Numbered from the stretch's first letter, positions 9,084 to 23,623 are shown. The stretch is 32,000 bases of DNA from Flavobacteriaceae bacterium (GCA_965224465.1 OZ245049.1:1140001-1172000); one strand, 5' to 3'. The notes: generated from the sequence alone by a model not told the origin. Program-made: numbers and translations.

Positions 9084-9430
9084 GTTTTTTTCAGTCTTAT
9101 ATTTTAGTTTACTAATAACGTTTAGTGTCAAAAACGTAGGACAGTTGATAAGCACTTTCGTTACGGATTATTACCTGACTAAATATAAATGTTTTGCTTT
9201 TATATTTTATTCTATAAACACCAAATTTCATATTTAATTTGAAGAACACTATATACGATATACAGTGTTCTTCAAATGTACATAAAATATGTAGGGCTTA
9301 CTGAGTTTATAAGAGATTAACTAAACTTCATATTAGATATATATTCATGATAATAACCACCTCCATTAAAAAAACAGAAGAACTTATTTGATTCATTTTT
9401 TGAACAAATACTATTTGAGGTTCCTTTTTT

Positions 9431-9772: not shown

Positions 9773-9893
9773 CTAGCGTTATTGAAAAACAGAACGATAG
9801 CGAAGGATATCCTTAGATTTTTCGCTTAATTAAAATAAAAATTGATTCCATTTCTAAACTGTCACTTGGAAATACATTTGACATTACACCAAC
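9773..9893. repeat. Left copy (R1) of an imperfect direct repeat of about 120 bp bracketing the toxin/array island
   Basis: Aligns by eye with 20931..21050 in the same orientation. Identical blocks include atccttagatttt, atttctaaac, gtcacttggaaat and tttgacatta. Identity is roughly three quarters by eye. Confidence 0.6.
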
Positions 9894-9912: not shown

Positions 9913-10413
9913 TCAGTTTACAGCCACCTCGCAAAATTTTATTAAATCAGCCTTAGTCATAGCACCCGCATAACGTTTTACTTCCTTTCCGTTCCTCACT
10001 AGAACAAATTGAGGCAATCCTTTTATATGGTATTTATCTACGATACTTCTATTAAAATCTGCATTCACTTTTAATACTTTCACCTTTTTTGATTCGGCTG
10101 CAAATTTATCGATTATAGAATCCATCATTACACAAGGGCCACACCATTCTGCCCAAAAATCTATCAGTACTAATCCCTCCTTTTCCAACAGGGTCTCTAT
10201 GTTCTCTCCTTCCAATTTCAACATCACCGAATCCTTATTACTCTTCATTATTTTTTTATAAATATATCTAACAGGTAAGGTGAATGCCGCAAAAATAGTG
10301 GATCCCATAAAGAGTATAAAAGCGAGGATATAATGAATAATCGTACCTGTATTTTTACTTTTTTTGAAATTTTCTTCCGCTTGATTTTGATAAGCTATTA
10401 TCTTTTCTATCAT
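9913..10413 (-). CDS. Membrane-anchored thioredoxin-family protein
   Basis: 166 aa. One N-terminal TM helix (IIHYILAFILFMGSTIFAAFTL) followed by a thioredoxin fold with the active site WAEWCGPC. Confidence 0.85.
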   Translation of the reverse strand: MIEKIIAYQNQAEENFKKSKNTGTIIHYILAFILFMGSTIFAAFTLPVRYIYKKIMKSNKDSVMLKLEGENIETLLEKEGLVLIDFWAEWCGPCVMMDSIIDKFAAESKKVKVLKVNADFNRSIVDKYHIKGLPQFVLVRNGKEVKRYAGAMTKADLIKFCEVAVN

Positions 10414-10488: not shown

Positions 10489-10698
10489 TCATTGATTCAT
10501 TACAAATATAAGTTTTTGATAATAAACATTTTCCGAGTCCTCTTTATTTAATTTTTCTTTCACCAATTTTATCATCTATTCAGTTCGCATAAAAAAAGCA
10601 CCTCGTTTAGGTAAATATTGCCTAATAAGTCCAGATAAATTTTCATTAAAACCTCTTTCCCTTGAATGGTAAGGGTAGGCAACATAACATGCTGTTTC
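10489..10698 (-). pseudogene. 3' remnant of an IS30-family transposase gene
   Basis: Hand translation gives (TACYV)AYPYHSRERGFNENLSGLIRQYLPKRGAFFMRTE*MIKLVKEKLNKEDSENVYYQKLIFVMNQ*. PYxSxERGxNENxxGLIRQYxPK is the hallmark IS30 catalytic-E region. An in-frame TAG at 10576-10578 and the missing N-terminal two thirds mark it as a scar. Confidence 0.6.
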
Positions 10699-10699
10699 C

Positions 10700-11398
10700 C
10701 TACCAACCCCCTATGCGTATTCTTTCTTTTTGCTGCTCAATGGTATCTTCTGGAGAGGGAATAGCACTAGGATACAAAGGTTTTGGAAACCCGTTTTTCT
10801 TTCTGCGCTCATAATCTTGCTGACGATAATCGTCAAAAGCAGTCCCAGGTGGTAAAGGCCTATTTTTATCCATATACCATACATAAAAACTCCACACTTT
10901 ATAGGGTTCACTGCCATAAAAAGTATACAACAAATCTAATTTTCTTGGCTTAAAAGTATTTACAAACTTTAAATACTCAAAATCTGAATAACCTTCAATA
11001 TTACCTGTTACAGCGATTACAACTTTTAAATCTTTAAAATCTCCTTTCAGTGGAGGAAGAAAAAAAACATCTGGATAGGTAACCGTTCCTTCCAAACGAT
11101 TCAATTCAAAAATTTTATATTCTTTTTTTGCAAACAAACCGTAATACACCCCAAATAAGCCAAGTAAAATCAATAGAATGGTTACGACTACTTGTTGAAT
11201 CCCTTCTATTGGTATCATAAGCCATATAGCAATCACAATGGCTCCTATACCGAATTGCATATAAGAATTTAACCTATGATCATGCGTTTCGAAATAGATT
11301 TTATCATCAGCACGTTTTAACATTGCTTTATCTGATTTACTAACCAAACTCTTATCTATTTCTATCGGATCTTCTATAATTTGATGTGGTTGATACAT
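10700..11398 (-). CDS. Two-TM membrane protein, putative immunity paralog (copy 8; cassette type a-x)
   Basis: 232 aa, the last unit of the array. Its 3' flank runs directly into the IS30 remnant. Confidence 0.8.
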   Translation of the reverse strand: MYQPHQIIEDPIEIDKSLVSKSDKAMLKRADDKIYFETHDHRLNSYMQFGIGAIVIAIWLMIPIEGIQQVVVTILLILLGLFGVYYGLFAKKEYKIFELNRLEGTVTYPDVFFLPPLKGDFKDLKVVIAVTGNIEGYSDFEYLKFVNTFKPRKLDLLYTFYGSEPYKVWSFYVWYMDKNRPLPPGTAFDDYRQQDYERRKKNGFPKPLYPSAIPSPEDTIEQQKERIRIGGW

Positions 11399-11534
11399 TT
11401 TATTTCGTTCTATAAGATTCTAACATTTTAATACTATTTTCTGTAACAATTTTTGGCTTCTAAACTACTTGTCTCACACACACTTTAAAAACTGCAACTC
11501 TCCTATAAAAAAAACAACATAACATGCTGTTTCC

Positions 11535-12233
11535 CTACCAACCCCCTATGCGTATTCTTTCTTTTTGCTGCTCAATGGTATCTTCTGGAGAGGGAATAGC
11601 ACTAGGATACAAAGGTTTTGGAAACCCGTTTTTCTTTCTGCGCTCATAATCTTGCTGACGATAATCGTCAAAAGCAGTCCCAGGTGGTAAAGGCCTATTT
11701 TTATCCATATACCATACATAAAAACTCCACACTTTATAGGGTTCACTGCCATAAAAAGTATACAACAAATCTAATTTTCTTGGCTTAAAAGTATTTACAA
11801 ACTTTAAATACTCAAAATCTGAATAACCTTCAATATTACCTGTTACAGCGATTACAACTTTTAAATCTTTAAAATCTCCTTTCAGTGGAGGAAGAAAAAA
11901 AACATCTGGATAGGTAACCGTTCCTTCCAAACGATTCAATTCAAAAATTTTATAGTTCTTTTTTGCAGATAAACCGTAATAAATCCAAAATAATCCACCA
12001 ATTACTAATACTGTTGGTAATATTCTTTGAGATGGTATTTCTGAATAATAAAAAAGCCCTATTCCAAACACAATGGCTCCTATACCGAATTGCATATAAG
12101 AATTTAACCTATGATCATGCGTTTCGAAATAGATTTTATCATCAGCACGTTTTAACATTTCTTTATCTGATTTACTAACCAAACTCTTATCTATTTCTAT
12201 CGGATCTTCTATAATTTGATGTGGTTGATACAT
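11535..12233 (-). CDS. Two-TM membrane protein, putative immunity paralog (copy 7; cassette type a-y)
   Basis: 232 aa. The C-terminal 138 aa are identical to copy 8, but the TM hairpin cassette is the alternative y version. Confidence 0.8.
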   Translation of the reverse strand: MYQPHQIIEDPIEIDKSLVSKSDKEMLKRADDKIYFETHDHRLNSYMQFGIGAIVFGIGLFYYSEIPSQRILPTVLVIGGLFWIYYGLSAKKNYKIFELNRLEGTVTYPDVFFLPPLKGDFKDLKVVIAVTGNIEGYSDFEYLKFVNTFKPRKLDLLYTFYGSEPYKVWSFYVWYMDKNRPLPPGTAFDDYRQQDYERRKKNGFPKPLYPSAIPSPEDTIEQQKERIRIGGW

Positions 12234-12369
12234 TTTATTTCGTTCTATAAGATTCTAACATTTTAATACTATTTTCTGTAACAATTTTTGGCTTCTGCAT
12301 TGCTTCTAACACACACACTTTAAAAACTGCAACTCTCCTATTAAAAAAACAACATAACATGCTGTTTCC

Positions 12370-13068
12370 CTACCAACCCCCTATGCGTATTCTTTCTTTT
12401 TGCTGTTCAAGGGTATCTTCTGGAGTAGGAATAGCACTAGGATACAAAGGTTTTGGAAACCCGTTTTTCTTTCTGCGCTCATAATCTTGCTGACGATAAT
12501 CGTCAAAAGCAGTCCCCGGAGGTAAGGGCCTATTTTTATCCATATACCACACATAAAAACTCCACTCTTTATATGGATCACTGCCATAAAAAGTAAACAA
12601 CAAATCTAATTTTCTTGGCTTAAAAGTATTTACAAACTTTAAATACTCAAAATCTGAATAACCTTCAATACTACCTGTTACTGCGATTACAACTTTTAAA
12701 TCTTTAAAATCTCCTTTCAATGGAGGAAGAAAAAAAACATCTGGATAGGTAACCGTTCCTTCCAAACGATTCAATTCGAAAATTTTATATTCTTTTTTTG
12801 CAAACAAACCGTAATACACCCCAAATAAGCCAAGTAAAATCAATAGAATGGTTACGACTACTTGTTGAATCCCTTCTATTGGTATCATAAGCCATATAGC
12901 AATCACAATGGCTCCTATACCCCAGTAAATATTCGATTTCAAGAAAAAAGCAAAAGATCTAAAATAAATTTCATCATCTGCTCTATTCAAAGATTTTTTA
13001 TCTGATTTACGAACCAAACTCTTATCTATTTCTATCGGATCTTCTATAATTTGATGTGGTTGATACAT
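12370..13068 (-). CDS. Two-TM membrane protein, putative immunity paralog (copy 6; cassette type b-x)
   Basis: 232 aa. The 5' half matches copy 4, while the extreme 3' end (ERIRIGGW) matches copies 7 and 8. The copy is therefore itself a mosaic. Confidence 0.8.
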   Translation of the reverse strand: MYQPHQIIEDPIEIDKSLVRKSDKKSLNRADDEIYFRSFAFFLKSNIYWGIGAIVIAIWLMIPIEGIQQVVVTILLILLGLFGVYYGLFAKKEYKIFELNRLEGTVTYPDVFFLPPLKGDFKDLKVVIAVTGSIEGYSDFEYLKFVNTFKPRKLDLLFTFYGSDPYKEWSFYVWYMDKNRPLPPGTAFDDYRQQDYERRKKNGFPKPLYPSAIPTPEDTLEQQKERIRIGGW

Positions 13069-13205
13069 TTTATTTCGTTCTATAAGATTCTAACATTTTA
13101 ATACTATTTTCTGTAACAATTTTTGGCTTCTAAACTACTTGTCTCACACACACTTTAAAAGCTGCAACTCTCCTATTAAAAAAAACAACATAACATGCTG
13201 TTTCC

Positions 13206-13904
13206 CTACCAACCCCCAATACGTTTTCTTTCTTTTTGCTGTTCAATGGTATCTTCTGGAGTGGGAATAGCACTAGGATACAAAGGTTTTGGAAACCCGT
13301 TTTTCTTTCTGCGATCATAATCTTGCTGACGATAATCGTCAAAAGCAGTCCCCGGAGGTAAGGGCCTATTTTTATCCATATACCATACATAAAAACTCCA
13401 CACTTTATAGGGTTCACTGCCATAAAAAGTATACAACAAACCTAATTTTCTTGGCTTAAAAGTATTTACAAACTTTAAATACTCAAAATCTGAATAACCT
13501 TCAATATTACCTGTTACTGCGATTACAACTTTTAAATCTTTAAAATCTCCTTTCAGTGGAGGAAGAAAAAAAACATCTGGATAGGTAACCGTTCCTTCCA
13601 AACGATTCAATTCGAAAATTTTATATTCTTTTTTTGCAAACAAACCGTAATAAATCCAAAATAATCCACCAATTACTAATACTGTTGGTAATATTCTTTG
13701 AGATGGTATTTCTGAATAATAAAAAAGCCCTATCCCAAACACAATGGCTCCTATACCGAATTGCATATAAGAATTTAACCTATGATCATGCGTTTCGAAA
13801 TAGATTTTATCATCAGCACGTTTTAACATTGCTTTATCTGATTTACGAACCAAACTCTTATCTATTTCTATCGGATCTTCTATAATTTGATGTGGTTGAT
13901 ACAT
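13206..13904 (-). CDS. Two-TM membrane protein, putative immunity paralog (copy 5; cassette type a-y)
   Basis: 232 aa, with the same cassette pair as copies 3 and 7. Shares KLGLLY and DYDRRKK with copy 3. Confidence 0.8.
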   Translation of the reverse strand: MYQPHQIIEDPIEIDKSLVRKSDKAMLKRADDKIYFETHDHRLNSYMQFGIGAIVFGIGLFYYSEIPSQRILPTVLVIGGLFWIYYGLFAKKEYKIFELNRLEGTVTYPDVFFLPPLKGDFKDLKVVIAVTGNIEGYSDFEYLKFVNTFKPRKLGLLYTFYGSEPYKVWSFYVWYMDKNRPLPPGTAFDDYRQQDYDRRKKNGFPKPLYPSAIPTPEDTIEQQKERKRIGGW

Positions 13905-14041
13905 TTTATTTCGTCCTATAAGATGCTAACATTTTAATACTATTTTCTGTAACAATTTTTGGCTTCTAAACTACTTGTATCACACACACTTTAAAAACTG
14001 CAACTCTCCTATTAATAAAAACAACATAACATGCTGTTTCC

Positions 14042-14740
14042 CTACCAACCTCCAATACGTTTTCTTTCTTTTTGCTGCTCAATGGTATCTTCTGGAGTAG
14101 GAATAGCACTAGGATACAAAGGTTTTGGAAACCCGTTTTTCTTTCTGCGCTCATAATCTTGCTGACGATAATCGTCAAAAGCAGTCCCAGGTGGTAAAGG
14201 CCTATTTTTATCCATATACCATACATAAAAACTCCACACTTTATAGGGTTCACTGCCATAAAAAGTATACAACAAATCTAATTTTCTTGGCTTAAAAGTA
14301 TTTACAAACTTTAAATACTCAAAATCTGAATAACCTTCAATATTACCTGTTACTGCGATTACAACTTTTAAATCTTTAAAATCTCCTTTCAATGGAGGAA
14401 GAAAAAAAACATCTGGATAGGTAACCGTTCCTTCCAAACGATTCAATTCGAAAATTTTATATTCTTTTTTTGCAAACAAACCGTAATACACCCCAAATAA
14501 GCCAAGTAAAATCAATAGAATGGTTACGACTACTTGTTGAATCCCTTCTATTGGTATCATAAGCCATATAGCAATCACAATGGCTCCTATACCCCAGTAA
14601 ATATTCGATTTCAAGAAAAAAGCAAAAGATCTAAAATAAATTTCATCATCTGCTCTATTCAAAGATTTTTTATCTGATTTACGAACCAAACTCTTATCTA
14701 TTTCTATCGGATCTTCTATAATTTGATGTGGTTGATACAT
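14042..14740 (-). CDS. Two-TM membrane protein, putative immunity paralog (copy 4; cassette type b-x)
   Basis: 232 aa, with cassettes KSLNRADDEIYFRSFAFFLKSNIYW and IAIWLMIPIEGIQQVVVTILLILLGLFGVYYGL. The N-terminal 100 aa are identical to copy 6. Confidence 0.8.
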   Translation of the reverse strand: MYQPHQIIEDPIEIDKSLVRKSDKKSLNRADDEIYFRSFAFFLKSNIYWGIGAIVIAIWLMIPIEGIQQVVVTILLILLGLFGVYYGLFAKKEYKIFELNRLEGTVTYPDVFFLPPLKGDFKDLKVVIAVTGNIEGYSDFEYLKFVNTFKPRKLDLLYTFYGSEPYKVWSFYVWYMDKNRPLPPGTAFDDYRQQDYERRKKNGFPKPLYPSAIPTPEDTIEQQKERKRIGGW

Positions 14741-14877
14741 TTTATTTCGTTCTATAAGATTCTAACATTTTAATACTATTTTCTGTAACAATTTTTGGCT
14801 TCTAAACTACTTGTCTCACACACACTTTAAAAGCTGCAACTCTCCTATTAAAAAAAACAACATAACATGCTGTTTCC

Positions 14878-15576
14878 CTACCAACCCCCAATACGTTTTC
14901 TTTCTTTTTGCTGTTCAATGGTATCTTCTGGAGTGGGAATAGCACTAGGATACAAAGGTTTTGGAAACCCGTTTTTCTTTCTGCGATCATAATCTTGCTG
15001 ACGATAATCGTCAAAAGCAGTCCCCGGAGGTAAGGGCCTATTTTTATCCATATACCATACATAAAAACTCCACACTTTATAGGGTTCACTGCCATAAAAA
15101 GTATACAACAAACCTAATTTTATTGGCTTAAAAGTATTTACAAACTTTAAATACTCAAAATCTGAATAACCTTCAATATTACCTGTTACTGCGATTACAA
15201 CTTTTAAATCTTTAAAATCTCCTTTCAGTGGAGGAAGAAAAAAAACATCTGGATAGGTAACCGTTCCTTCCAAACGATTCAATTCAAAAATTTTATATTC
15301 CTTTTTTGCAGATAAACCGTAATAAATCCAAAATAATCCACCAATTACTAATACTGTTGGTAATATTCTTTGAGATGGTATTTCTGAATAATAAAAAAGC
15401 CCTATCCCAAACACAATGGCTCCTATACCGAATTGCATATAAGAATTTAACCTATGATCATGCGTTTCGAAATAGATTTTATCATCAGCACGTTTTAACA
15501 TTGCTTTATCTGATTTACTAACCAAACTCTTATCTATTTCTATCGGATCTTCTATAATTTGATGTGGTTGATACAT
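14878..15576 (-). CDS. Two-TM membrane protein, putative immunity paralog (copy 3; cassette type a-y)
   Basis: 232 aa, with cassettes AMLKRADDKIYFETHDHRLNSYMQF and FGIGLFYYSEIPSQRILPTVLVIGGLFWIYYGL. Shares the KLGLLY and DYDRRKK substitutions with copy 5. Confidence 0.8.
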   Translation of the reverse strand: MYQPHQIIEDPIEIDKSLVSKSDKAMLKRADDKIYFETHDHRLNSYMQFGIGAIVFGIGLFYYSEIPSQRILPTVLVIGGLFWIYYGLSAKKEYKIFELNRLEGTVTYPDVFFLPPLKGDFKDLKVVIAVTGNIEGYSDFEYLKFVNTFKPIKLGLLYTFYGSEPYKVWSFYVWYMDKNRPLPPGTAFDDYRQQDYDRRKKNGFPKPLYPSAIPTPEDTIEQQKERKRIGGW

Positions 15577-15713
15577 TTTATTTCGTTCTATAAGATTCTA
15601 ACATTTTAATACTATTTTCTGTAACAATTTTTGGTTTCTAAACTACTTGTATCACACACACTTTAAAAACTGCAACTCTCCTATTAATAAAAACAACATA
15701 ACATGCTGTTTCC

Positions 15714-16412
15714 CTACCAACCTCCAATACGTTTTCTTTCTTTTTGCTGCTCAATGGTATCTTCTGGAGTAGGAATAGCACTAGGATACAAAGGTTTTGG
15801 AAACCCGTTTTTCTTTCTGCGCTCATAATCTTGCTGACGATAATCGTCAAAAGCAGTCCCAGGTGGTAAAGGCCTATTTTTATCCATATACCATACATAA
15901 AAACTCCACACTTTATAGGGTTCACTGCCATAAAAAGTATACAACAAATCTAATTTTCTTGGCTTAAAAGTATTTACAAACTTTAAATACTCAAAATCTG
16001 AATAACCTTCAATATTACCTGTTACAGCGATTACAACTTTTAAATCTTTAAAATCTCCTTTCAATGGAGGAAGAAAAAAAACATCTGGATAGGTAACCGT
16101 TCCTTCCAAACGATTCAATTCAAAAATTTTATATTCTTTTTTTGCAAACAAACCGTAATACACCCCAAATAAGCCAAGTAAAATCAATAGAATGGTTACG
16201 ACTGCTTGTTGAATCTCTTCTATTGATACCATAAGCCATATAGCAAACACAATGGCTCCTATGCCGAATTTCATATAAGTATTCAGCCTATGACCATGCG
16301 TTTCAAAATAGATTTTATCATCAGCACGTTTTAACATTCCTTTATCTGATTTACTAACCAAACTCTTATCTATTTCTATCGGATCTTCTATAATTTGATG
16401 TGGTTGATACAT
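15714..16412 (-). CDS. Two-TM membrane protein, putative immunity paralog (copy 2; cassette type a-x, slightly diverged)
   Basis: 232 aa. Cassette 1 is GMLKRADDKIYFETHGHRLNTYMKF and cassette 2 is FAIWLMVSIEEIQQAVVTILLILLGLFGVYYGL. The C-terminal domain differs from copy 8 at 2 positions. Confidence 0.8.
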   Translation of the reverse strand: MYQPHQIIEDPIEIDKSLVSKSDKGMLKRADDKIYFETHGHRLNTYMKFGIGAIVFAIWLMVSIEEIQQAVVTILLILLGLFGVYYGLFAKKEYKIFELNRLEGTVTYPDVFFLPPLKGDFKDLKVVIAVTGNIEGYSDFEYLKFVNTFKPRKLDLLYTFYGSEPYKVWSFYVWYMDKNRPLPPGTAFDDYRQQDYERRKKNGFPKPLYPSAIPTPEDTIEQQKERKRIGGW

Positions 16413-16548
16413 TTTATTTCGTTCTATAAGATGCTAACATTTTAATACTATTTTCTGTAACAATTTTTGGCTTCTGCATTGCTTCTAACACACACACTTT
16501 AAAAACTGCAACTCTCCTATAAAAAAAACAACATAACATGCTGTTTCC

Positions 16549-17247
16549 CTACCAACCCCCTATGCGTTTTCTTTCTTTTTGCTGTTCAATGGTATCTTCT
16601 GGAGTAGGAATAGCACTAGGATACAAAGGTTTTGGAAACCCGTTTTTCTTTCTGCGCTCATAATCTTGCTGACGATAATCGTCAAAAGCAGTCCCAGGTG
16701 GTAAGGGCCTATTTTTATCCATATACCATACATAAAAACTCCACTCTTTATAGGGCTCACTGCCATAAAAAGTATACAACAAACCTAATTTTCTTGGCTT
16801 AAAAGTATTTACAAATTTTAAATACTCCCTATCTGAATAACCTTCAATACTACCTGTAACAGCGATTACAACTTTTAAATCTTTAAAATCTCCTTTCAAT
16901 GGAGGAAGAAAAAAAACATCTGGATAGGTAACCGTTCCTTCCAAACGATTCAATTCAAAAATCTTATAGTTCTTTTTTGCAAATAAACCGTAATAAATCC
17001 AAAACAATCCACCAATTACTAATACTGTTGGTAATATTCTTTGAGATGGTATTTCTGAATAATAAAAAAGCCCTATCCCAAACACAATGGCTCCTATGCC
17101 CCAATAAATATTCGATTTCAAGAAAAAAGCAAAAGATCTAAAATAAATTTCATCATCTGCTCTATTCAAAGATTCTTTATCTGATTTACGAACCAAACTC
17201 TTATCTATTTCTATCGGATCTTCTATAATTTGATGTGGTTGATACAT
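16549..17247 (-). CDS. Two-TM membrane protein, putative cognate immunity protein (array copy 1 of 8; cassette type b-y)
   Basis: 232 aa. The ATG lies 1 nt after the stop of the 1116-aa ORF (TAAaATG). No signal peptide. Two adjacent TM helices at about residues 50-88 and a conserved C-terminal domain of about 140 aa. Cassette 1 is SLNRADDEIYFRSFAFFLKSNIYW and cassette 2 is FGIGLFYYSEIPSQRILPTVLVIGGLFWIYYGL. Confidence 0.8.
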   Translation of the reverse strand: MYQPHQIIEDPIEIDKSLVRKSDKESLNRADDEIYFRSFAFFLKSNIYWGIGAIVFGIGLFYYSEIPSQRILPTVLVIGGLFWIYYGLFAKKNYKIFELNRLEGTVTYPDVFFLPPLKGDFKDLKVVIAVTGSIEGYSDREYLKFVNTFKPRKLGLLYTFYGSEPYKEWSFYVWYMDKNRPLPPGTAFDDYRQQDYERRKKNGFPKPLYPSAIPTPEDTIEQQKERKRIGGW

Positions 17248-17248
17248 T

Positions 17249-20200
17249 TTATTTCGTTCTATAAGATGCTAACATTTTAATACTGTTTTCTGTAACAATT
17301 TTTGGCTTCTGCATTGCTTCTTCTTCTGACATATTTTGTAATTTAACCTTACGTACATTTATAGGCTGTTGATATCGATGTGCTGTAAATATACTCGTCA
17401 TATATCTTGTATTATTGTTCACTTTATTATGTAATTGTGCGTTGGTAAATACGTAGCGTTTGTTATGATTAAAATCAGAAGGAGTATACTCATCATCTTG
17501 TACACGAACTCTAAAGGTAAACAATACTTCGCCATCAGGATAATCCATATACCTCCAATAAAACAGATCAGGTAAACCGAAACTAACAATACAATTAGGA
17601 GTCATTTTATCCGCATCAAAAAGGAAGCTCTTTTCAGGAAAACTAGATATAAATGTAGTGATTTCGAAACGTCTTCCTTTTTTTAATGGAGCTTTAATAC
17701 CAAAGGGATAAAACCATGCTTTAATATCTAAATCATAAAATTCACTAATATTTTGAACAGAATATATAGAGGCTCTAAAACGATTGGTACTTACATTATG
17801 TATGTCAAATCCTTTTATAGGCGCAACATAACCAGCATTAGGTTCTGGTTCAAGAACAACTAAACTAGGAATGGCTATGTCTAAGAAAGCTGTATATGCT
17901 TTTTCAAAATTACTAAAACTCGTATATTCTTTAGCTTGTGCGCTTACAAACCATGGATTGATAACTGTTGCGGTACTGTGAGACACCAAGCGATTGATAT
18001 AATCATGTGGTAATTCCGTATCTTTAGGAGGCAATGCATAATCACTTAATGGAAAATTCTTAAAATAGCCTTCGAGTTGGGTGTCAACAAAATATTTTTG
18101 AGCCAAATAGTAACAGCCTAACAAAGCCCCTCCAAGAAGTGCTGCTGGCCAAAAACCAAGAGCAAATACTGCTACGCCTCCACCAATTAAAGCAGTAACA
18201 TCTGCAAATAAGAAAACAGCGCCTATTCCCGCAGCCATTCCGAACAAGGCTGCAGCATCGTTATCGCGCACAGAAAAACTCCGATAGCTATCTCTAGAGG
18301 CAGTAAAAACGGTAATGGCAGAACTTACTATTTTAAGTTTTGCTATATTTTTAGAAAAATCATCCATGCTACTACGAAAAATTTCACCTACAAATCCTTT
18401 TTTTGCTAGATGATTCTCATACAAATTCATTTTTTCAATTAAAGACATACTTGCCGCTCCCAATTGAACACTAGCAAACCCGAATTTTTCAAACCCTCTA
18501 TAAGAAGGGTCTTTTAAAAAACTATTAACAGCTTTAGACAACACAAACACCTCAATTAAAACAACAAGTCCTCCGAAAGCGTTTGATTTTAGAACTTTTT
18601 CTGCTTCTCCTTTAAAACGTTTTGGAAGGTTTCCTTTTAAATTTACTTCAAGTTTTTTGTTTTTGATAAGTGCTTCAGCACTTTGTTTAGTCATTTTTGT
18701 ATACTCAAGGTGCCAGTATTTTTTATATTTATGTAATGTCGCTTTTTCCCCATTAATTTCAAAACGCAAATTGCGGTTATTGATTTTAGTTTCAAATTCT
18801 TCTAGTGCTTTAAATTTAAAGGTAGCTACACGTGTGTTTTTATCTCTAAAATAAGATATTTTACTTTTTACAGGTATGGGAAGTTTTTTTTGCTTTAGCT
18901 TAATAAAAGCACCTATATAGCTATCATGATTTGCATAAGCCTTTATGATTCTTTCAATAACTCCTACTGTTTTATTTATTATACTCAAAACAAACATATC
19001 CTGTATGTCGATCTTATAATCTAATATTTTGGTGGATTTATTAAAAACACTTGGATTTTCGTTGTATAAAGTTTCGTTTATATGGATGTACCAGGGATCC
19101 TTTTTAGGCTCATAGACATTTGTTAAATCTAAATGACGGTCATACATATTAGGATAACTGCCTAAAGCAATGAAATGTACTGCTATAACACCTTTGGCAT
19201 CTTCAATCCTATCGGGAATACTATTCATATAATCATCCGTTGCATCTTGATAATAGTCGGACTTCAAAAAAGTTCCCAAATCATCTCTATACGTATTAAT
19301 TACCTTGCGTTGCACCTTGCGTTCTTCTACGCCTAATATTTTTTCTAGTTTTATTTTTTCGACACCTTTTTGTTCGGTAAATGGTCGAAATACGCCCCCT
19401 ACTGTAAAATCTAAAACACGGTTGGCAACGGTGTTTTTTATTACATCTGAATTGTATTTTTCACTATTATCATGGTTGTTGTACACAAAATCATACGTAA
19501 GTTGCGCCAATCTATGTAAATATTGAATTTGTCTGGATTTTTCAGTATCGGATTTTGGTAATTGCTCCCCTTTTTGAAGCATAGAAAGTATCTCCACGGT
19601 AGACTTCCCTGTTTGTAAACTTGCCATCATCGCTTTAAGTCTCAAAATTTCACTGTCAATACCTACACATATTTCATTGGCACAGCCAATAGGGTCATCC
19701 AGTATAATAAACATATCTTCTAACAAGATATTCCCACCTAGCTTATCTTGTCTCTTTTCGTCGTCAGCAATTCTCGTAAGTATCTCACGGTATTTATACG
19801 CCATAGGATTCCTATCACTTACAACTATAGGTGTATTATTATAATGCGAAACTGACATATTATTTGTTTCTCCATCTTTAGGGATTCCTTTACAGAGTAC
19901 TTTTACCTTACAACGTTGACCCCTTTTTTCTTTGCTATCTAAAAGCTCTTTTACATAATTTGCCTTCCATTGTACAGGAGAAAAAGCAAAGCAATAGGTT
20001 TGGTTATTCCGATCAAGTATTTTATACATAATACCAAGATCGAAAGTGGTCCGAACATCTAAATAGCTACCGTCTTTTTTGTTTTTACTCCAAAGTATTT
20101 CATGTAACAATCCAAAATCATCGACCCTAAATTCCTTAAAATCATCATGAGGTGTTTGATCATTTATCATATAAACATAGCCTGCTCTTAAAGGAGTTTT

Positions 20201-20599
20201 CGATACCGAAAAATTTTCATTAGCTGGAATTTCTGAATCCATAATCACAGCATTCAGTTGTACAAAAGGTATAAAATCCTGATTTTTTAGTTCAGACTCA
20301 GAAGGTTTTTCGTTGATAACCTTCCCAACAGTTGCTTTTTTTTCTTCATTAAAAAAAATAGCTTTAAAATATGCGGCACTATCAGGTGATGAATAACTAG
20401 TTGTTGGCACAGAATAATCAGAACAAACATCAAAAAGTCCATACCGTAAAAAATGAAGTTTTATCCCTCTTTTTTCTATATCCAATGTAGGCATTTCGTT
20501 GCATACAACATTTTTATATGCAGCTGTAAATGAGAGCTGTGTAATTATTTGTTTGAATTCTTTTTCTTGATTTTTTTCAAGTGTTATATTTTCTTTCAT
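17249..20599 (-). CDS. Large protein without a signal peptide, with a C-proximal glycine-zipper TM cluster. Putative membrane-disrupting polymorphic toxin or T6SS-type effector (VasX-N-like motifs).
   Basis: 1116 aa with no N-terminal signal peptide. Residues ~105-320 carry IPFVQLN, PLRAGYVYMI, FAFSPVQW and FIILDDPIGCANEI, which I recall as the motif order of VasX-type effector N-terminal regions. Residues ~673-835 hold several hydrophobic helices, including AALFGMAAGIGAVFLFADVTALIGGGVAVFALGFWPAALLGGALLGCYYLA. The gene is translationally coupled to the downstream two-TM gene. Function is inferred, not demonstrated. Confidence 0.6.
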   Translation of the reverse strand: MKENITLEKNQEKEFKQIITQLSFTAAYKNVVCNEMPTLDIEKRGIKLHFLRYGLFDVCSDYSVPTTSYSSPDSAAYFKAIFFNEEKKATVGKVINEKPSESELKNQDFIPFVQLNAVIMDSEIPANENFSVSKTPLRAGYVYMINDQTPHDDFKEFRVDDFGLLHEILWSKNKKDGSYLDVRTTFDLGIMYKILDRNNQTYCFAFSPVQWKANYVKELLDSKEKRGQRCKVKVLCKGIPKDGETNNMSVSHYNNTPIVVSDRNPMAYKYREILTRIADDEKRQDKLGGNILLEDMFIILDDPIGCANEICVGIDSEILRLKAMMASLQTGKSTVEILSMLQKGEQLPKSDTEKSRQIQYLHRLAQLTYDFVYNNHDNSEKYNSDVIKNTVANRVLDFTVGGVFRPFTEQKGVEKIKLEKILGVEERKVQRKVINTYRDDLGTFLKSDYYQDATDDYMNSIPDRIEDAKGVIAVHFIALGSYPNMYDRHLDLTNVYEPKKDPWYIHINETLYNENPSVFNKSTKILDYKIDIQDMFVLSIINKTVGVIERIIKAYANHDSYIGAFIKLKQKKLPIPVKSKISYFRDKNTRVATFKFKALEEFETKINNRNLRFEINGEKATLHKYKKYWHLEYTKMTKQSAEALIKNKKLEVNLKGNLPKRFKGEAEKVLKSNAFGGLVVLIEVFVLSKAVNSFLKDPSYRGFEKFGFASVQLGAASMSLIEKMNLYENHLAKKGFVGEIFRSSMDDFSKNIAKLKIVSSAITVFTASRDSYRSFSVRDNDAAALFGMAAGIGAVFLFADVTALIGGGVAVFALGFWPAALLGGALLGCYYLAQKYFVDTQLEGYFKNFPLSDYALPPKDTELPHDYINRLVSHSTATVINPWFVSAQAKEYTSFSNFEKAYTAFLDIAIPSLVVLEPEPNAGYVAPIKGFDIHNVSTNRFRASIYSVQNISEFYDLDIKAWFYPFGIKAPLKKGRRFEITTFISSFPEKSFLFDADKMTPNCIVSFGLPDLFYWRYMDYPDGEVLFTFRVRVQDDEYTPSDFNHNKRYVFTNAQLHNKVNNNTRYMTSIFTAHRYQQPINVRKVKLQNMSEEEAMQKPKIVTENSIKMLASYRTK

Positions 20600-20930
20600 G
20601 GCGTCTTTTTCAAAAATATCAGAGGTAGATACCCCACATTTTTAACGTAAAAAACAATGGTACATCCTATTTTTATCTTCCTAGATATAAGTCTATTTCC
20701 AAGAGAAAAGAACAATTACTATTCCCTTTAGACTTCAAAGATACGTAAGAAAAGTTATATGCCGCTTACAACAAATCGTTTTTTTAATAAATTGTGAAAT
20801 AACATTTATTATAGCATCATACCTCCAATCAATAACCGTTAAATTGACTGGGTATTATCTTAATAATTTTATGACGCCTTTATGCCAATTAAAATCCAAA
20901 ATGACCTATATAAATAGGTTGTTTTACGTG

Positions 20931-21050
20931 CTAGCATAGTTAAAAAACAAAACGACAGCTAACTATCCTTAGATTTTCAGCCTAGCTAGAATAAAAAACA
21001 ATTCTATTTCTAAACCGTCACTTGGAAATGTTTTTGACATTAGCAATACT
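20931..21050. repeat. Right copy (R2) of the imperfect direct repeat of about 120 bp bracketing the island
   Basis: Same orientation and shared blocks as 9773..9893. Lies between the lon terminator and the upstream region of the large ORF. Confidence 0.6.
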
Positions 21051-21064
21051 TTTAAAATCAGCTC

Positions 21065-21113
21065 AAAAAAAAAACAAAAAAAGAGCGAAAAAACACATCA
21101 TGTCTTTCCGCTC
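21065..21113 (-). terminator. Probable intrinsic terminator of lon
   Basis: On the minus strand, a bulged stem gagcg-g-aaa ... ttt-cgctc is followed by a long T-run (tttttttgtttttttttt), about 35 nt after the lon stop. Confidence 0.5.
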
Positions 21114-21145: not shown

Positions 21146-23623
21146 TTACACCTCAAATTTAATAGGATTTTTTACTTTTTGTTTGGTCAAAGCTAAATCA
21201 ATTACTTCTTTCATATCAGAAACATAGCTGAATTTCAATCCTTTTAGGTAACTAGCTTTAATTTCTTCAACATCTTTTTTGTTCTCAATAGACAAAATCA
21301 ATTCTTTAATATTGGCTCTTTTTGCAGCTAATATTTTTTCTTTGACTCCTCCTACTGGCAATACTTTACCTCTTAATGTAATTTCACCAGTCATAGCCAT
21401 TTTTGATTTCACTTTTCGCTGAGTTAACACAGAAACCAACGATGTTAACATAGTAATACCAGCACTAGGCCCATCTTTTGGAGTCGCACCTTCTGGCACG
21501 TGAATATGAACTTTATAGGCATCTAATACTTTCTGGTCAACACCAAAATCTGCTGCATGTGCCTTGATGTATTCCATGGCAATAGTTGCTGATTCCTTCA
21601 TCACCTTTCCTAGATTCCCTGTAATGGTCAAGCCTTTTCCTTTAGAGATGATAGACTCTATAAATAAAATATCTCCACCTACACTTGTCCATGCCAAACC
21701 TGTTACAACACCCGCTACATCATTGTTTTCGTATTTGTCACGTTCTAAATGAGACGGTCCTAATACTTTCTCGATAATTTCTATCGTTATATTGGTTTCA
21801 TATTCTTCATCCAAAGCAATCGACTTGGCTGCAAAACGAACCATCTTGGCCAATTGTTTTTCCAATCCACGCACTCCAGATTCACGAGTATAAGCTACTA
21901 CAATTTTCTCGATGGATTTTATATCCATTTGAATATACTTCTTGGTTAAACCATGGTCTTTAATTTGTTTTGGCAATAAATGACGTTTGGCTATTTCAAT
22001 TTTTTCTTCTATCGTATAGCCCGACACATTGATAATCTCCATACGATCTCTCAATGCCCAAGGAATTGTAGATAAACTATTGGCAGTAGCAATAAATAAG
22101 ACTTTAGATAAATCGTAGTCCAACTCTAAATAATTATCGTAAAAAGAGGCGTTTTGTTCTGGATCCAATACTTCTAACATTGCAGATGAAGGATCTCCAT
22201 TATGACTTGAAGATGCCAATTTATCTATCTCATCCAATACATATACAGGATTAGAAGTTCCTACTTTTTTCAAGTCCTTAATAATACGACCTGGCATAGC
22301 ACCAATATATGTTTTCCTATGACCACGAATTTCAGCTTCGTCGCGTAATCCTCCAAGAGACATACGTACATATTTACGACCAATAGCTTCTGCAATAGAT
22401 TTACCCAAACTTGTCTTCCCAACCCCTGGAGGTCCGTACAAACACAAAATTGGTGATTTCATATCTCCTTTCAGTTTTAAAACCGCCAAGTGTTCGATGA
22501 TACGTTCCTTGACCTTGTCCAAACCAAAATGATCTCTATCTAGTATTTTCTGAGCTCTTTTCAAGTCAAAAACATCCTTCGTGTACTCATTCCATGGCAA
22601 TTCCAACAACAAATCTAAATAATTTCGTTGCACCGAATATTCTGCCATTTGTGGATTCATACGTTGCAAACGACCGAGTTCCTTTTCAAAGGTTTCTTTT
22701 ACATCCTTATTCCATTTTTTAGCCTTGGCTTTTACACGCATTTCGTCCAATTCTTCATCATACGAAACACCTCCCAATTCTTCCTGAATGGTTTTTAACT
22801 GCTGATGTAAATAATACTCACGTTGCTGTTGGTCCATATCCACTCTTGTTTTGGATTGGATATCATTTTTTAACTGCAGGCGTTGTAATTCAGCATCCAT
22901 TTTTTGTAAGGTCACCAAAGCACGTTCTTTCAAATTGTTAATTTCTAACAATTCTTGTTTTTCCTTCACAGGTAAATTCATGTTTGCTGACACAAAATTA
23001 ATCAAGAAAGGTTTGCTTTCTATATTGCGTATCGCAAAAGTAGCTTCTGATGGTAGGTTCGGATTTTCTTTAACAATACGTGTCGCCAATTCTTTAATAG
23101 AATCAATAATCGCATCAAACTCTTTTTCATTTTCCTCAGACCTGTCTTCAATAATCTCTTTGGTTGTGGCCTTCATAAAAGGTTCGTCTTGAATCATACT
23201 TTCAATTTCAAAACGTTTTTTACCTTGAATGATAACCGTAGTATTTCCATCAGGCATTTTCAATACCTTCAAAATACTTGCAACAGTCCCCGTTTTATAA
23301 ATATCATTTTCAGTAGGATCCTCTATTTCTTCATCCATTTGGGCTACCACACCTATAATTTTATTTCCTTTGCTGGCTTGTTTAATCAACTCAATGGATT
23401 TATCACGCCCAGCAGTAATTGGAATTACAACCCCTGGAAAAAGTACAGTATTTCGCAAAGGCAAAATAGGTAAAGTGTCAGGAACATCCTCTTTATTTAT
23501 CTCCTCTTCGTCCTCGGGAGTCATTAAAGGAATTAATTCTGCGTCTTCATCCATCATACTATGCAATGACAGATTGTCAAACTTTAAAAACTTAGATCTA
23601 CTCATATATATATTTTCAGTCAC
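21146..23623 (-). CDS. lon: ATP-dependent Lon protease (LonA)
   Basis: 825 aa. Lon N-terminal domain ([19 protein letters not shown]), AAA+ Walker [10 protein letters not shown], Walker [10 protein letters not shown] and a protease domain with catalytic Ser in PKDGPSAGI. The exact start among N-terminal Met codons is uncertain. Confidence 0.97.

What the first reader, a model, noticed from the sequence alone, without database searches (positions are those of the whole stretch)
10681..20599. Large membrane-toxin-like gene coupled to an eight-copy tandem array of one two-TM protein gene
Seen directly:
- A 1116-aa ORF without a signal peptide ends at 17249.
- A 232-aa ORF starts at 17247 (TAAaATG).
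- That ORF recurs eight times head-to-tail with an 835-836 bp period. All copies are intact and full length.

Inference: tight coupling of a large protein to a small membrane protein is the classic layout of a polymorphic toxin or T6SS effector with its immunity gene. The large protein carries glycine-zipper TM helices. An immunity protein against a membrane-inserting toxin is expected to be a membrane protein.

What is unusual is the eightfold amplification of the putative immunity gene next to a single toxin gene. The locus sits between housekeeping uvrB and lon. No Hcp, VgrG, PAAR, T6SS, T9SS-CTD or Sec signal is visible in the window. I do not recognise the 232-aa family, so the pair may be undescribed.
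Basis: partly seen in the sequence, partly recalled or inferred. Interest (0 to 1): 0.9.

Follow-up and report, generated by a model that had tools for sequence, protein, structure and literature searches.

The report
VasX-type toxin with eight immunity genes
A marine flavobacterium carries a gene for a known kind of membrane-puncturing contact weapon (a VasX-family type VI secretion toxin). It is followed by eight tandem copies of its membrane "antidote" gene, which are nearly identical except for swapped membrane-spanning segments; this is an expected toxin–immunity pair with an instructive repeat structure.

Summary
A 1116-aa ORF (17249-20599, minus strand) is followed one base later by eight intact 232-aa ORFs with an 835/836-bp period.

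The large protein belongs to the characterised VasX/BTH_I2691 family of pore-forming T6SS effectors:
- Pfam VasX_N scores above its cut-off.
- MIX motifs are present.
- Its model's best Foldseek match is P. putida Tke5.
- NCBI names its relatives "toxin VasX".

In 46 of 75 related Bacteroidota loci a VasX-like gene sits directly upstream of 1-9 copies of the same small protein. Hcp, VgrG and PAAR genes often lie upstream of that. Multi-copy arrays are therefore a trait of the family, and eight copies is the high end.

A 2025 PNAS dataset already lists Tenacibaculum, Aquimarina and Cellulophaga VasX orthologues with adjacent immunity genes.

Three things appear to be new:
- The small-protein family is unnamed (no Pfam, NCBIfam or PDB match).
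- Copies within an array differ almost only in two cassettes, the juxtamembrane segment and the two-helix membrane hairpin. All four cassette combinations are present.
- A C-terminal tail is about 74% conserved across the phylum.

Each spacer also repeats the last ~74 nt of the toxin gene, which marks unequal crossing-over.

Verdict: new member of a known kind, of moderate interest.

The parts
17249..20599 (-). VasX/BTH_I2691-family T6SS pore-forming effector gene (1116 aa)
   Evidence: Pfam VasX_N 34.1 bits against a cut-off of 27. NCBIfam BTH_I2691_fam matches residues 658-843 at E 1e-8, below its cut-off. PDB sequence hit to Ptx2 (9qpv) at E 1.8e-6. Foldseek top hit is Tke5 (9r8g_A) at E 5.5e-9. 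NCBI names relatives 'toxin VasX'.
19913..20200 (-). VasX_N / MIX region (residues 134-229), with LRAGYVYMI (137-145) and FAFSPVQWK (204-212)
   Evidence: Pfam hit coordinates. G140, Y141, Y143, Q210 and W211 are invariant across 21 homologues. The motifs were read. The MIX consensus hRxGhhYhh / hh[F/Y]SxxxW[S/T] is recalled from memory.
18113..18595 (-). Hydrophobic Gly/Ala-rich predicted transmembrane (pore-forming) region, residues ~669-829
   Evidence: Kyte-Doolittle segments at 669-696 and 781-829. Long helices in the AF2 model. NCBIfam BTH_I2691 match over 658-843.
17252..17872 (-). C-terminal beta-rich (Ig-like) domain, residues ~910-1116
   Evidence: The AF2 model has strands at 912-1114 with pLDDT 70-90. 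Weak Foldseek matches to Ig domains. PMC12718326 describes a C-terminal Ig-like domain in the VasX family.
16549..17247 (-). Immunity-like gene copy 1 (232 aa); cassettes N=B, TM=A
   Evidence: The ATG lies one base after the toxin stop.
15714..16412 (-). Immunity-like gene copy 2; cassettes N=A', TM=B'
14878..15576 (-). Immunity-like gene copy 3; cassettes N=A, TM=A
14042..14740 (-). Immunity-like gene copy 4; cassettes N=B, TM=B
13206..13904 (-). Immunity-like gene copy 5; cassettes N=A, TM=A
12370..13068 (-). Immunity-like gene copy 6; cassettes N=B, TM=B
11535..12233 (-). Immunity-like gene copy 7; cassettes N=A, TM=A
10700..11398 (-). Immunity-like gene copy 8; cassettes N=A, TM=B
16413..16548 (-). 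Spacer 1, representative of seven 136/137-nt spacers (also 15577-15713, 14741-14877, 13905-14041, 13069-13205, 12234-12369, 11399-11534). Its last ~74 nt copy the 3' end of the toxin gene. Its first ~28 nt form a weak hairpin followed by a T-run.
   Evidence: Spacer sequences. Right-aligned comparison with the toxin 3' end: 73 of 74 nt identical in spacer 1. Hairpin energy -10.3 kcal/mol, z -2.7.
20600..21078 (-). Intergenic region between the lon terminator and the toxin start; presumed promoter region of the toxin-immunity operon
   Evidence: Sequence. lon terminator at 21117-21079. No promoter was demonstrated.
20942..21042 (.). Upstream copy of a ~100-nt direct repeat bracketing the toxin + array + thioredoxin block
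   Evidence: 80-82% identical to 9784-9886.
9784..9886 (.). Downstream copy of the same ~100-nt direct repeat

Best explanation
The locus is an orphan T6SS effector-immunity module, with no Hcp, VgrG or PAAR gene in the window.

Toxin (inferred by homology to VasX, Tke5, Ptx2 and Bte2): the 1116-aa protein is a VasX/BTH_I2691-family toxin. Its N-terminal MIX/VasX_N region loads it onto a VgrG/PAAR spike. It is fired into the periplasm of a neighbouring cell. Its buried Gly/Ala-rich helices then insert into the inner membrane and form an ion-conducting pore that collapses the membrane potential.

Immunity (inferred): the eight 232-aa genes encode inner-membrane immunity proteins that neutralise incoming toxin inside the membrane. 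They have a two-helix hairpin. By the positive-inside rule, the N-terminus and the ~140-aa C-terminal domain probably face the cytoplasm.

Origin of the array (shown by the sequence): it arose by unequal crossing-over of a unit that spans the toxin-immunity junction. Every copy therefore keeps the toxin gene's last ~74 nt and the same start context.

Variation among copies: gene conversion keeps the copies near-identical except for two cassettes, residues 20-49 and the membrane hairpin 50-90. Each cassette exists in two ~62-63%-identical alleles, and all four combinations occur.

Proposed consequence (inferred): the hairpin and juxtamembrane cassettes set which toxin variant is recognised. The array would then be a repertoire that protects against the cell's own toxin and against variant toxins of competing strains, with extra dosage as a side benefit.
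For: Toxin identity:
- Pfam VasX_N is above its gathering score.
- BTH_I2691_fam matches the hydrophobic region.
- PDB sequence hits to Ptx2 and Tke5.
- The only strong Foldseek hit is Tke5, E 5.5e-9, probability 1.0.
- NCBI names homologues 'toxin VasX'.

T6SS link:
- T. maritimum has PAAR-VasX-(240/233 aa) x4-5.
- TssD, VgrG and PAAR domains lie upstream of VasX in L023, L010, L050 and L019.

Immunity role:
- The small genes are always downstream and on the same strand, with tight or overlapping junctions, in 46 of 75 loci.
- Orphan arrays without a toxin also exist (L004, L013), as is known for immunity genes.
- The protein has a two-helix hydrophobic hairpin.
- Divergence of residues 41-173 tracks divergence of the toxin body (rho 0.32-0.56) but hardly that of the toxin's delivery domain (rho 0.13-0.23).
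- Known VasX immunities (TsiV2, Tki5, Pti2, Bti2) are membrane proteins, and Tki5 binds the Tke5 transmembrane region in the membrane (PMC13133200).

Array mechanics:
- Toxin 3'-end copies in the spacers.
- Cassette mosaic.
- The same pattern, with the hairpin the least or second-least conserved region and the tail the most conserved, in all 17 other arrays of four or more copies.
- Copy number and order differ among T. maritimum strains.
Against: - No T6SS structural, Hcp, VgrG or PAAR gene is in the window, and the rest of this genome could not be read.
- Neither toxicity nor protection was tested.
- The large-protein model has modest confidence (pLDDT 64). The TM-score to Tke5 is only 0.31-0.36.
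- Homology of the 232-aa family to TsiV2, Tki5, Pti2 or Bti2 could not be tested.
- If most of the immunity protein is cytoplasmic, it is unclear how it blocks a toxin that arrives from the periplasm, other than within the membrane.
- The extreme conservation of the C-terminal tail is atypical for an immunity protein and is not explained.
- The co-variation analysis is not corrected for phylogeny.
Confidence: 0.85

Rival explanations
1. Pure dosage amplification. The array only raises the amount of one immunity protein, because neutralising a membrane toxin is stoichiometric. The cassette differences are functionally neutral leftovers of recombination.
For: Outside the cassettes the copies are 95-100% identical, and each keeps the same start context. 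Arrays expand and contract between strains.
Against: The cassettes are ~37-38% divergent at nucleotide level, against 0-5% elsewhere. The same hairpin-focused divergence recurs in 17 independent arrays. All four cassette combinations are retained intact. Both N cassettes and TM cassette A have closer relatives in other genomes, so they are old alleles and not drift.
Confidence: 0.25
2. The 232-aa proteins are not immunity proteins. They are accessory factors for the toxin, such as membrane chaperones or export adaptors, or for another membrane process.
For: The C-terminal tail (mean 74% identity across the phylum) behaves like a module that binds a conserved partner. It does not behave like a fast-evolving immunity surface. 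There is no homology to any named immunity family.
Against: From memory, known T6SS adaptors (DUF4123/Tap, Eag, DUF2169) are soluble, single-copy and usually upstream of the effector. Here the protein is a membrane protein, downstream and multi-copy. It also occurs as toxin-less orphan arrays (L004, L013). Its variable parts co-vary with the toxin body. These are immunity-gene signatures. PMC12718326 scored these neighbours as cognate immunity.
Confidence: 0.07
3. Assembly artefact: a shorter array was inflated by misassembly of repeats.
For: Tandem 835-bp repeats at 95-100% identity are hard to assemble from short reads.
Against: The copies are all distinguishable: there are 117 variable sites, and adjacent copies differ in cassettes and spacers. 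The source is a single 5.24-Mb contig. Comparable arrays of 4-9 copies occur in many independent assemblies.
Confidence: 0.03

Closest known systems
VasX/TsiV2 (V. cholerae), Tke5/Tki5 (P. putida), Ptx2/Pti2 (P. aeruginosa): the VasX / BTH_I2691 family of T6SS pore-forming effectors with membrane immunity proteins
   Same: N-terminal VasX_N/MIX region, a large helical body with buried hydrophobic helices, and a C-terminal beta domain. A membrane immunity gene lies immediately downstream. Tke5 is the top structural match (PMC13133200; bioRxiv 10.1101/2025.04.30.651342).
   Different: Sequence identity to the proteobacterial toxins is about 10%. No DUF4123 adaptor gene is seen. In relatives the partner is a ~235-aa PAAR protein. 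The immunity gene is an unnamed family present in eight copies.
Bte2/Bti2 of Bacteroides fragilis (GA3 T6SS) and the 'Bte2 orthologues' listed for marine Flavobacteriaceae (PMC12718326, Dataset S3)
   Same: Same phylum and same T6SS subtype context. VasX-family architecture was recognised by structure. Tenacibaculum, Aquimarina, Cellulophaga, Olleya and Zobellia are already listed there as carrying the toxin with an adjacent immunity gene.
   Different: That work does not mention arrays or cassette structure. Bte2 needs the Rnf complex, which those marine genomes lack. Whether Bti2 is homologous to the 232-aa family is unresolved; no Bacteroides protein appeared among the listed hits.
Tandem strings of T7SS immunity genes in Firmicutes: esaG, tipC, and tsaI next to the membrane-depolarising toxin TspA (PMC9484751)
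   Same: Many non-identical immunity paralogues sit in tandem beside one polymorphic toxin. Conserved sequence blocks support recombination that expands, contracts and shuffles the genes.
   Different: A different secretion system, phylum and protein families. That paper found little recombination for the membrane immunity TsaI. Here the membrane immunity shows clear cassette shuffling.
Orphan toxin-tip/immunity modules of Rhs and CDI loci; orphan T6SS immunity arrays (V. cholerae; Bacteroidales acquired interbacterial defence clusters). This comparison is from memory.
   Same: Toxin 3'-end remnants sit in front of downstream immunity genes. Toxin-less arrays exist in some genomes (L004, L013).
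   Different: The remnants here are only ~74 nt and are almost identical to the resident toxin. They mark duplication end-points and are not displaced alternative toxin tips. In L007 the remnant is longer (138 nt) and diverged (82%).

Membership tests
VasX / BTH_I2691 T6SS pore-forming effector family | VasX_N (PF20249) domain above Pfam's gathering score | tested here: met
   34.1 bits against a cut-off of 27, residues 134-229. All 23 database homologues but one carry PF20249.
VasX / BTH_I2691 T6SS pore-forming effector family | MIX motifs (hRxGhhYhh; hh[F/Y]SxxxW[S/T]; consensus recalled from memory) | tested here: met
   LRAGYVYMI at 137-145 and FAFSPVQWK at 204-212. The family consensus is AYSPVQWS, and G140, Y141, Y143, Q210 and W211 are invariant.
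VasX / BTH_I2691 T6SS pore-forming effector family | Full-length NCBIfam BTH_I2691_fam match above its cut-off (150 bits) | tested here: not met
   Only 34.1 bits, a local match of residues 658-843 to model positions 652-826. The model is built on proteobacterial sequences. PMC12718326 notes that sequence methods miss Bacteroidota members.
VasX / BTH_I2691 T6SS pore-forming effector family | Overall fold: N-terminal beta/MIX domain, large helical scaffold enclosing hydrophobic helices, C-terminal Ig-like domain | tested here: met
   The AF2 secondary-structure layout fits. The Foldseek top hit is Tke5 (9r8g_A) at E 5.5e-9 and probability 1.0 over the whole length. The TM-score is only 0.31-0.36 and model pLDDT is 64.
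VasX / BTH_I2691 T6SS pore-forming effector family | Genetic linkage to T6SS spike genes (Hcp, VgrG, PAAR or adaptor) | tested here: inconclusive
   Absent from the window. Present in relatives: PAAR in T. maritimum, and TssD, VgrG and PAAR in L023, L010, L050 and L019. The closest toxin relatives (L009, L011, L014, L005) are also orphan loci.
VasX / BTH_I2691 T6SS pore-forming effector family | T6SS-dependent secretion, periplasmic toxicity and membrane depolarisation | not testable with these tools
   Needs experiments.
Cognate T6SS immunity protein of a VasX toxin (TsiV2 / Tki5 / Pti2 / Bti2 type) | Encoded immediately downstream of the toxin on the same strand, and conserved across genomes | tested here: met
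   One-base gap in the window. 46 of 75 related loci are toxin-linked.
Cognate T6SS immunity protein of a VasX toxin (TsiV2 / Tki5 / Pti2 / Bti2 type) | Integral inner-membrane protein | tested here: met
   The AF2 model (pLDDT 85) has helices 41-63 and 67-89. Hydropathy supports a hairpin, and flank charges (0-1 K/R in the loop against 3-4 in each flank) suggest N-in/C-in. No dedicated topology predictor was available.
Cognate T6SS immunity protein of a VasX toxin (TsiV2 / Tki5 / Pti2 / Bti2 type) | Sequence or structural homology to a characterised VasX immunity protein | not tested
   No sequences of TsiV2, Tki5, Pti2 or Bti2 were available. There is no Pfam, NCBIfam, PADLOC or PDB-sequence match, and no Foldseek PDB hit at E<0.1. 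No Bacteroides-named hit appeared among the listed homologues.
Cognate T6SS immunity protein of a VasX toxin (TsiV2 / Tki5 / Pti2 / Bti2 type) | Co-evolution with the toxic part of the effector | tested here: met
   Spearman rho is 0.32-0.56 between immunity residues 41-173 and toxin residues 281-1116, against 0.13-0.23 with toxin residues 1-280. The analysis is not corrected for phylogeny.
Cognate T6SS immunity protein of a VasX toxin (TsiV2 / Tki5 / Pti2 / Bti2 type) | Protects against the toxin and binds it | not testable with these tools
   Needs experiments.

The most novel reading that the evidence does not exclude
The array would be a naturally shuffled, combinatorial immunity repertoire. 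Two exchangeable cassettes (juxtamembrane residues 20-49 and the membrane hairpin 50-90) would set toxin-allele specificity inside the membrane. The phylum-wide invariant cytoplasmic tail (WYMDKNRPLPPG...FD.YR..DFERRK..GFPKPLY...RIGGW) would perform a common neutralising step through a conserved partner, for example a host membrane complex that the toxin needs, by analogy with Bte2 and Rnf. That would be a two-part immunity mechanism not described for any T6SS immunity protein.
Probability: 0.15. Interest if true: 0.7.

Novelty: new member of a known kind. Interest (0 to 1): 0.38.

Why it matters
How membrane immunity proteins stop VasX-type pore-formers is still open. The Tke5 paper (PMC13133200) says the precise mechanism of these toxin-immunity interactions remains to be elucidated, and the Ptx2 authors could not co-purify Ptx2 with Pti2.

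This array offers natural chimeras. The eight proteins are identical in the first 19 residues and near-identical from residue 91 on, and they carry every combination of two alleles at two short cassettes, beside one toxin. Testing which variants protect against which toxin alleles would map the specificity determinant directly.

The same hairpin-variable, tail-invariant pattern occurs in 17 other arrays, so the result should generalise across Bacteroidota. This includes the fish pathogen Tenacibaculum maritimum and oral Capnocytophaga.

The locus also gives a clean sequence record of how immunity arrays grow, because the duplication unit spans the toxin-immunity junction.

It does not reveal a new kind of system.

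Tried and rejected
- Tandem Repeats Finder found nothing because the period exceeds its 500-nt limit. The repeat finder and ORF spacing were used instead.
- Exact-sequence look-ups of the window's own proteins failed, so the rest of the genome (T6SS core genes) could not be examined.
- The high 'member' counts of some homologue clusters did not mean 18-20-copy arrays. The two clusters looked up sit in arrays of only 3-4 copies.
- PADLOC: no defence-system match.
- Rfam: no RNA family in the window.
- Immunity protein: no PDB sequence hit. Foldseek gave nothing below E 0.1; a bacterial PH-like domain (3dcx) at E 1.4 is only a weak lead. A Pfam scan of 62 family members gave only scattered sub-threshold hits on the hydrophobic hairpin.
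- A profile of Bacteroidales, Marinilabiliaceae and Capnocytophaga members was searched to test a link to B. fragilis Bti2. No Bacteroides-named protein appeared among the 120 listed hits, so the link stays unresolved.
- The membrane thioredoxin downstream of the array was tested for conserved linkage. None was found in the other 76 loci.
- The sigma-70 promoter scan found fewer sites than shuffles and is not appropriate for Bacteroidota, so it was not used.
- The inter-copy hairpin plus T-run is weak (-10 kcal/mol). It cannot be called a terminator.

Full report
OBSERVATION

The window holds a 1116-aa ORF at 17249-20599 on the minus strand. It is followed by eight intact 232-aa ORFs on the same strand (16549-17247 down to 10700-11398). 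Their start-to-start spacing is 835 or 836 bp. The toxin stop codon and the first ATG are one base apart (TAAaATG). The eight proteins are 81-91% identical to copy 1. The flanks are housekeeping genes:
- uvrB (4922-6925);
- an acetyl-esterase (7476-9155);
- a membrane-anchored thioredoxin (9913-10413);
- lon (21146-23623);
- an ECF sigma factor and SbcCD further on.

THE LARGE PROTEIN

- It passes Pfam VasX_N (34.1 bits, cut-off 27, residues 134-229).
- Residues 658-843 match the hydrophobic C-terminal part of the NCBIfam model for the BTH_I2691 T6SS effector family. This match is below that model's full-length cut-off.
- A profile of 21 homologues hits the solved toxins Ptx2 (9qpv, E 1.8e-6) and Tke5 (9r8g) in the PDB.
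- The AlphaFold2 model has modest confidence (pLDDT 64). It shows an N-terminal beta region, a long helical body containing the Gly/Ala-rich hydrophobic helices (residues ~669-696 and 781-829), and a beta-rich C-terminal domain.
- The model's only strong Foldseek match in the PDB is the P. putida pore-forming T6SS toxin Tke5 (E 5.5e-9, probability 1.0).
- The MIX-type motifs LRAGYVYMI and FAFSPVQWK are present and conserved in the family. The MIX consensus is recalled from memory.
- NCBI already names homologues in Aquimarina, Tenacibaculum and Cellulophaga "toxin VasX".

The VasX family is experimentally characterised. VasX, Tke5, Ptx2 and Bacteroides Bte2 are delivered into the target periplasm and form ion-selective pores that dissipate the membrane potential. 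They are countered by membrane immunity proteins: TsiV2, Tki5, Pti2 and Bti2 (PMC12718326, PMC13133200, bioRxiv 10.1101/2025.04.30.651342).

THE SMALL PROTEIN AND ITS LINK TO THE TOXIN

The 232-aa family has no match in any library searched:
- Pfam, NCBIfam and PADLOC gave nothing.
- A PDB sequence search gave no hit.
- Foldseek gave no PDB hit below E 0.1.

Its AlphaFold2 model is confident (pLDDT 85, pTM 0.82). It has two short N-terminal strands, a two-helix hydrophobic hairpin (41-63, 67-89), a six-strand beta domain and three C-terminal helices. Charge distribution suggests that both termini are cytoplasmic. This is an inference, because no topology predictor was available.

The family has 726 database hits, or 481 clusters at 50% identity. 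Nearly all come from marine Flavobacteriaceae. It reaches Fulvivirga, Saprospiraceae, Marinilabiliaceae, Bacteroidales MAGs and Capnocytophaga.

I examined 75 related loci.
- In 46 of them a VasX-like ORF lies directly upstream on the same strand.
- In T. maritimum the order is PAAR-VasX-array.
- In L023, L010, L050 and L019, Pfam identifies TssD (Hcp), VgrG and PAAR proteins upstream of the toxin.
- Some arrays are orphans with no toxin gene nearby (L004, L013).
- Divergence of immunity residues 41-173 tracks divergence of the toxin body (Spearman rho 0.32-0.56). It hardly tracks the toxin's N-terminal delivery region (rho 0.13-0.23). This analysis is not corrected for phylogeny.

Together these are the expected signatures of a cognate immunity gene.

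THE ARRAY

Multi-copy arrays are normal for this family. 51 of 75 loci have two or more copies, nine have six or more, and the maximum seen within a 10-kb flank is nine. Copy number and order differ among T. maritimum strains. The window's eight copies are the high end of a common pattern.

Three details are worth recording.

1. Every 136/137-nt spacer ends with a copy of the last ~74 nt of the toxin gene (...AMQKPKIVTENSIKMLASYRTK, stop, A, ATG). The duplicated unit therefore spans the toxin-immunity junction, and each copy keeps the same start context. Shorter or more diverged toxin-end remnants occur in L007, L033 and L021.

2. Of the 117 variable nucleotide sites, 84 fall in codons 21-90. 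Two cassettes (residues 20-49 and 50-90) each exist as two alleles. The alleles are 62-63% identical at nucleotide level between types and 91-100% within a type. The segments outside the cassettes (nt 1-57 and 271-699) are 95-100% identical. All four cassette combinations are present. Both N cassettes and TM cassette A have closer relatives in other genomes. TM cassette B has none above 52%. This pattern requires recombination and concerted evolution with retention of cassette diversity. Uniform divergence after duplication cannot produce it.

3. The same pattern recurs in all 17 other arrays with four or more copies. The hairpin region is the least or second-least conserved and the C-terminal tail the most conserved. 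Examples for hairpin against tail are 65% against 99% in L014 and 62% against 98% in L066. Across all loci the tail (residues 174-232) averages 74% identity while the rest averages 20-28%. That degree of conservation is unusual for an immunity protein and remains unexplained.

MECHANISM PROPOSED

The toxin is loaded through its MIX region onto a VgrG/PAAR spike encoded elsewhere in the genome. It is injected into neighbouring cells and depolarises their inner membrane. This is inferred by homology.

The 232-aa proteins sit in the inner membrane and neutralise incoming toxin there. This is inferred from synteny, membrane location, co-variation, and the precedent of Tki5 binding the Tke5 transmembrane region.

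The variable hairpin and juxtamembrane cassettes most likely set which toxin variant is recognised. The array would then protect against the resident toxin and against variants made by competitors. This is an inference with about even odds. Pure dosage amplification is the main alternative.

Toxins of this group are themselves mosaics of delivery and toxic modules. A second, shorter VasX-like protein and further immunity paralogues exist in the same genome.

COMPARISON WITH WHAT IS KNOWN, AND NOVELTY

The toxin belongs to a known, structurally characterised family. PMC12718326 Dataset S3 already lists T. maritimum, T. gallaicum, T. jejuense, T. mesophilum, Aquimarina, Cellulophaga baltica, Olleya and Zobellia as encoding Bte2/VasX orthologues with adjacent immunity genes.

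Tandem strings of non-identical immunity genes shaped by recombination are well described for the T7SS (esaG, tipC, tsaI; PMC9484751). From memory, they are also known for several T6SS and CDI/Rhs systems.

I found no paper describing these arrays, their cassette structure or the conserved tail.

The finding is therefore a new member of a known kind, with features that make a useful experimental handle.

LIMITS

- No T6SS gene is in the window, and the genome could not be retrieved.
- Homology of the small protein to Bti2, TsiV2, Tki5 or Pti2 was not testable.
- Function is inferred throughout.

Noticed in passing
window 9784-9886 and 20942-21042: A ~100-nt direct repeat (80-82% identical) lies just downstream of the thioredoxin gene and again just downstream of the lon terminator. 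It brackets the thioredoxin, array and toxin block. It may mark island boundaries or an insertion site, or it may be a dispersed intergenic element. It is absent from all 76 related loci.
   Followed up: partly
window 9913-10413 (-): A 166-aa thioredoxin with an N-terminal membrane anchor sits directly downstream of the array, inside the repeat-bracketed block. No thioredoxin is linked to arrays in the other loci.
   Followed up: yes
window 13130-13423, 13966-14259, 14802-15095, 15638-15931 (-): Four 97-aa ORFs overlap the 3' parts of immunity copies 3-6 in another frame. They occur in only four of the eight units and are probably by-products of the repeat, not genes.
   Followed up: no
immunity protein residues 174-232 (e.g. 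window 16552-16728): The C-terminal tail WYMDKNRPLPPG..FD.YR..D[FY]ERRK..GFPKPLY.S.IPTPE.T.EQQ.ER.RIGGW averages 74% identity across Bacteroidota loci, while the rest of the protein averages 20-28%. It does not co-vary with the toxin. Its function is unknown.
   Followed up: partly
same genome, outside the window (P0130, P0056, P0385): The 5,241,564-bp source contig encodes a second VasX-like protein of 823 aa (56% identical, ending near residue 840, so it lacks the C-terminal beta domain). It also encodes further immunity paralogues of 240 and 243 aa.
   Followed up: partly
toxin homologues P0122-P0132 against window 17249-20599: The toxins are modular mosaics. One group shares residues 761-840 (70-88% identity) but not the N-terminus (10-44% over residues 1-280). 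Another group shares the N-terminus (35-75%) but not residues 641-840 (25-60%).
   Followed up: partly
L007 10749-10886; L033 5112-5151 and 5878-5917; L021 9022-9050: Remnants of the toxin gene's 3' end also lie between immunity genes in other genomes. The L007 remnant is 138 nt at 82% identity and resembles an orphan toxin-tip fragment.
   Followed up: partly
L023, L026, L044, L049, L050, L074 and others: Many arrays mix ~230-260-aa forms with ~325-345-aa forms that carry an extra C-terminal extension after the conserved tail.
   Followed up: no
window 1971-4820 (+): A 949-aa protein carries a T9SS type-B C-terminal sorting domain (CHU_C / TIGR04131). This confirms a Bacteroidota host with a T9SS. 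It is unrelated to the toxin locus.
   Followed up: no
window spacers, e.g. 16521-16548: After each internal copy, the sequence GGAAACAGCATGTTATGTTG plus a T-run folds into a weak hairpin (-10.3 kcal/mol, z -2.7). The last copy keeps the 20 nt but lacks the T-run. Whether this attenuates transcription along the array is unknown.
   Followed up: partly
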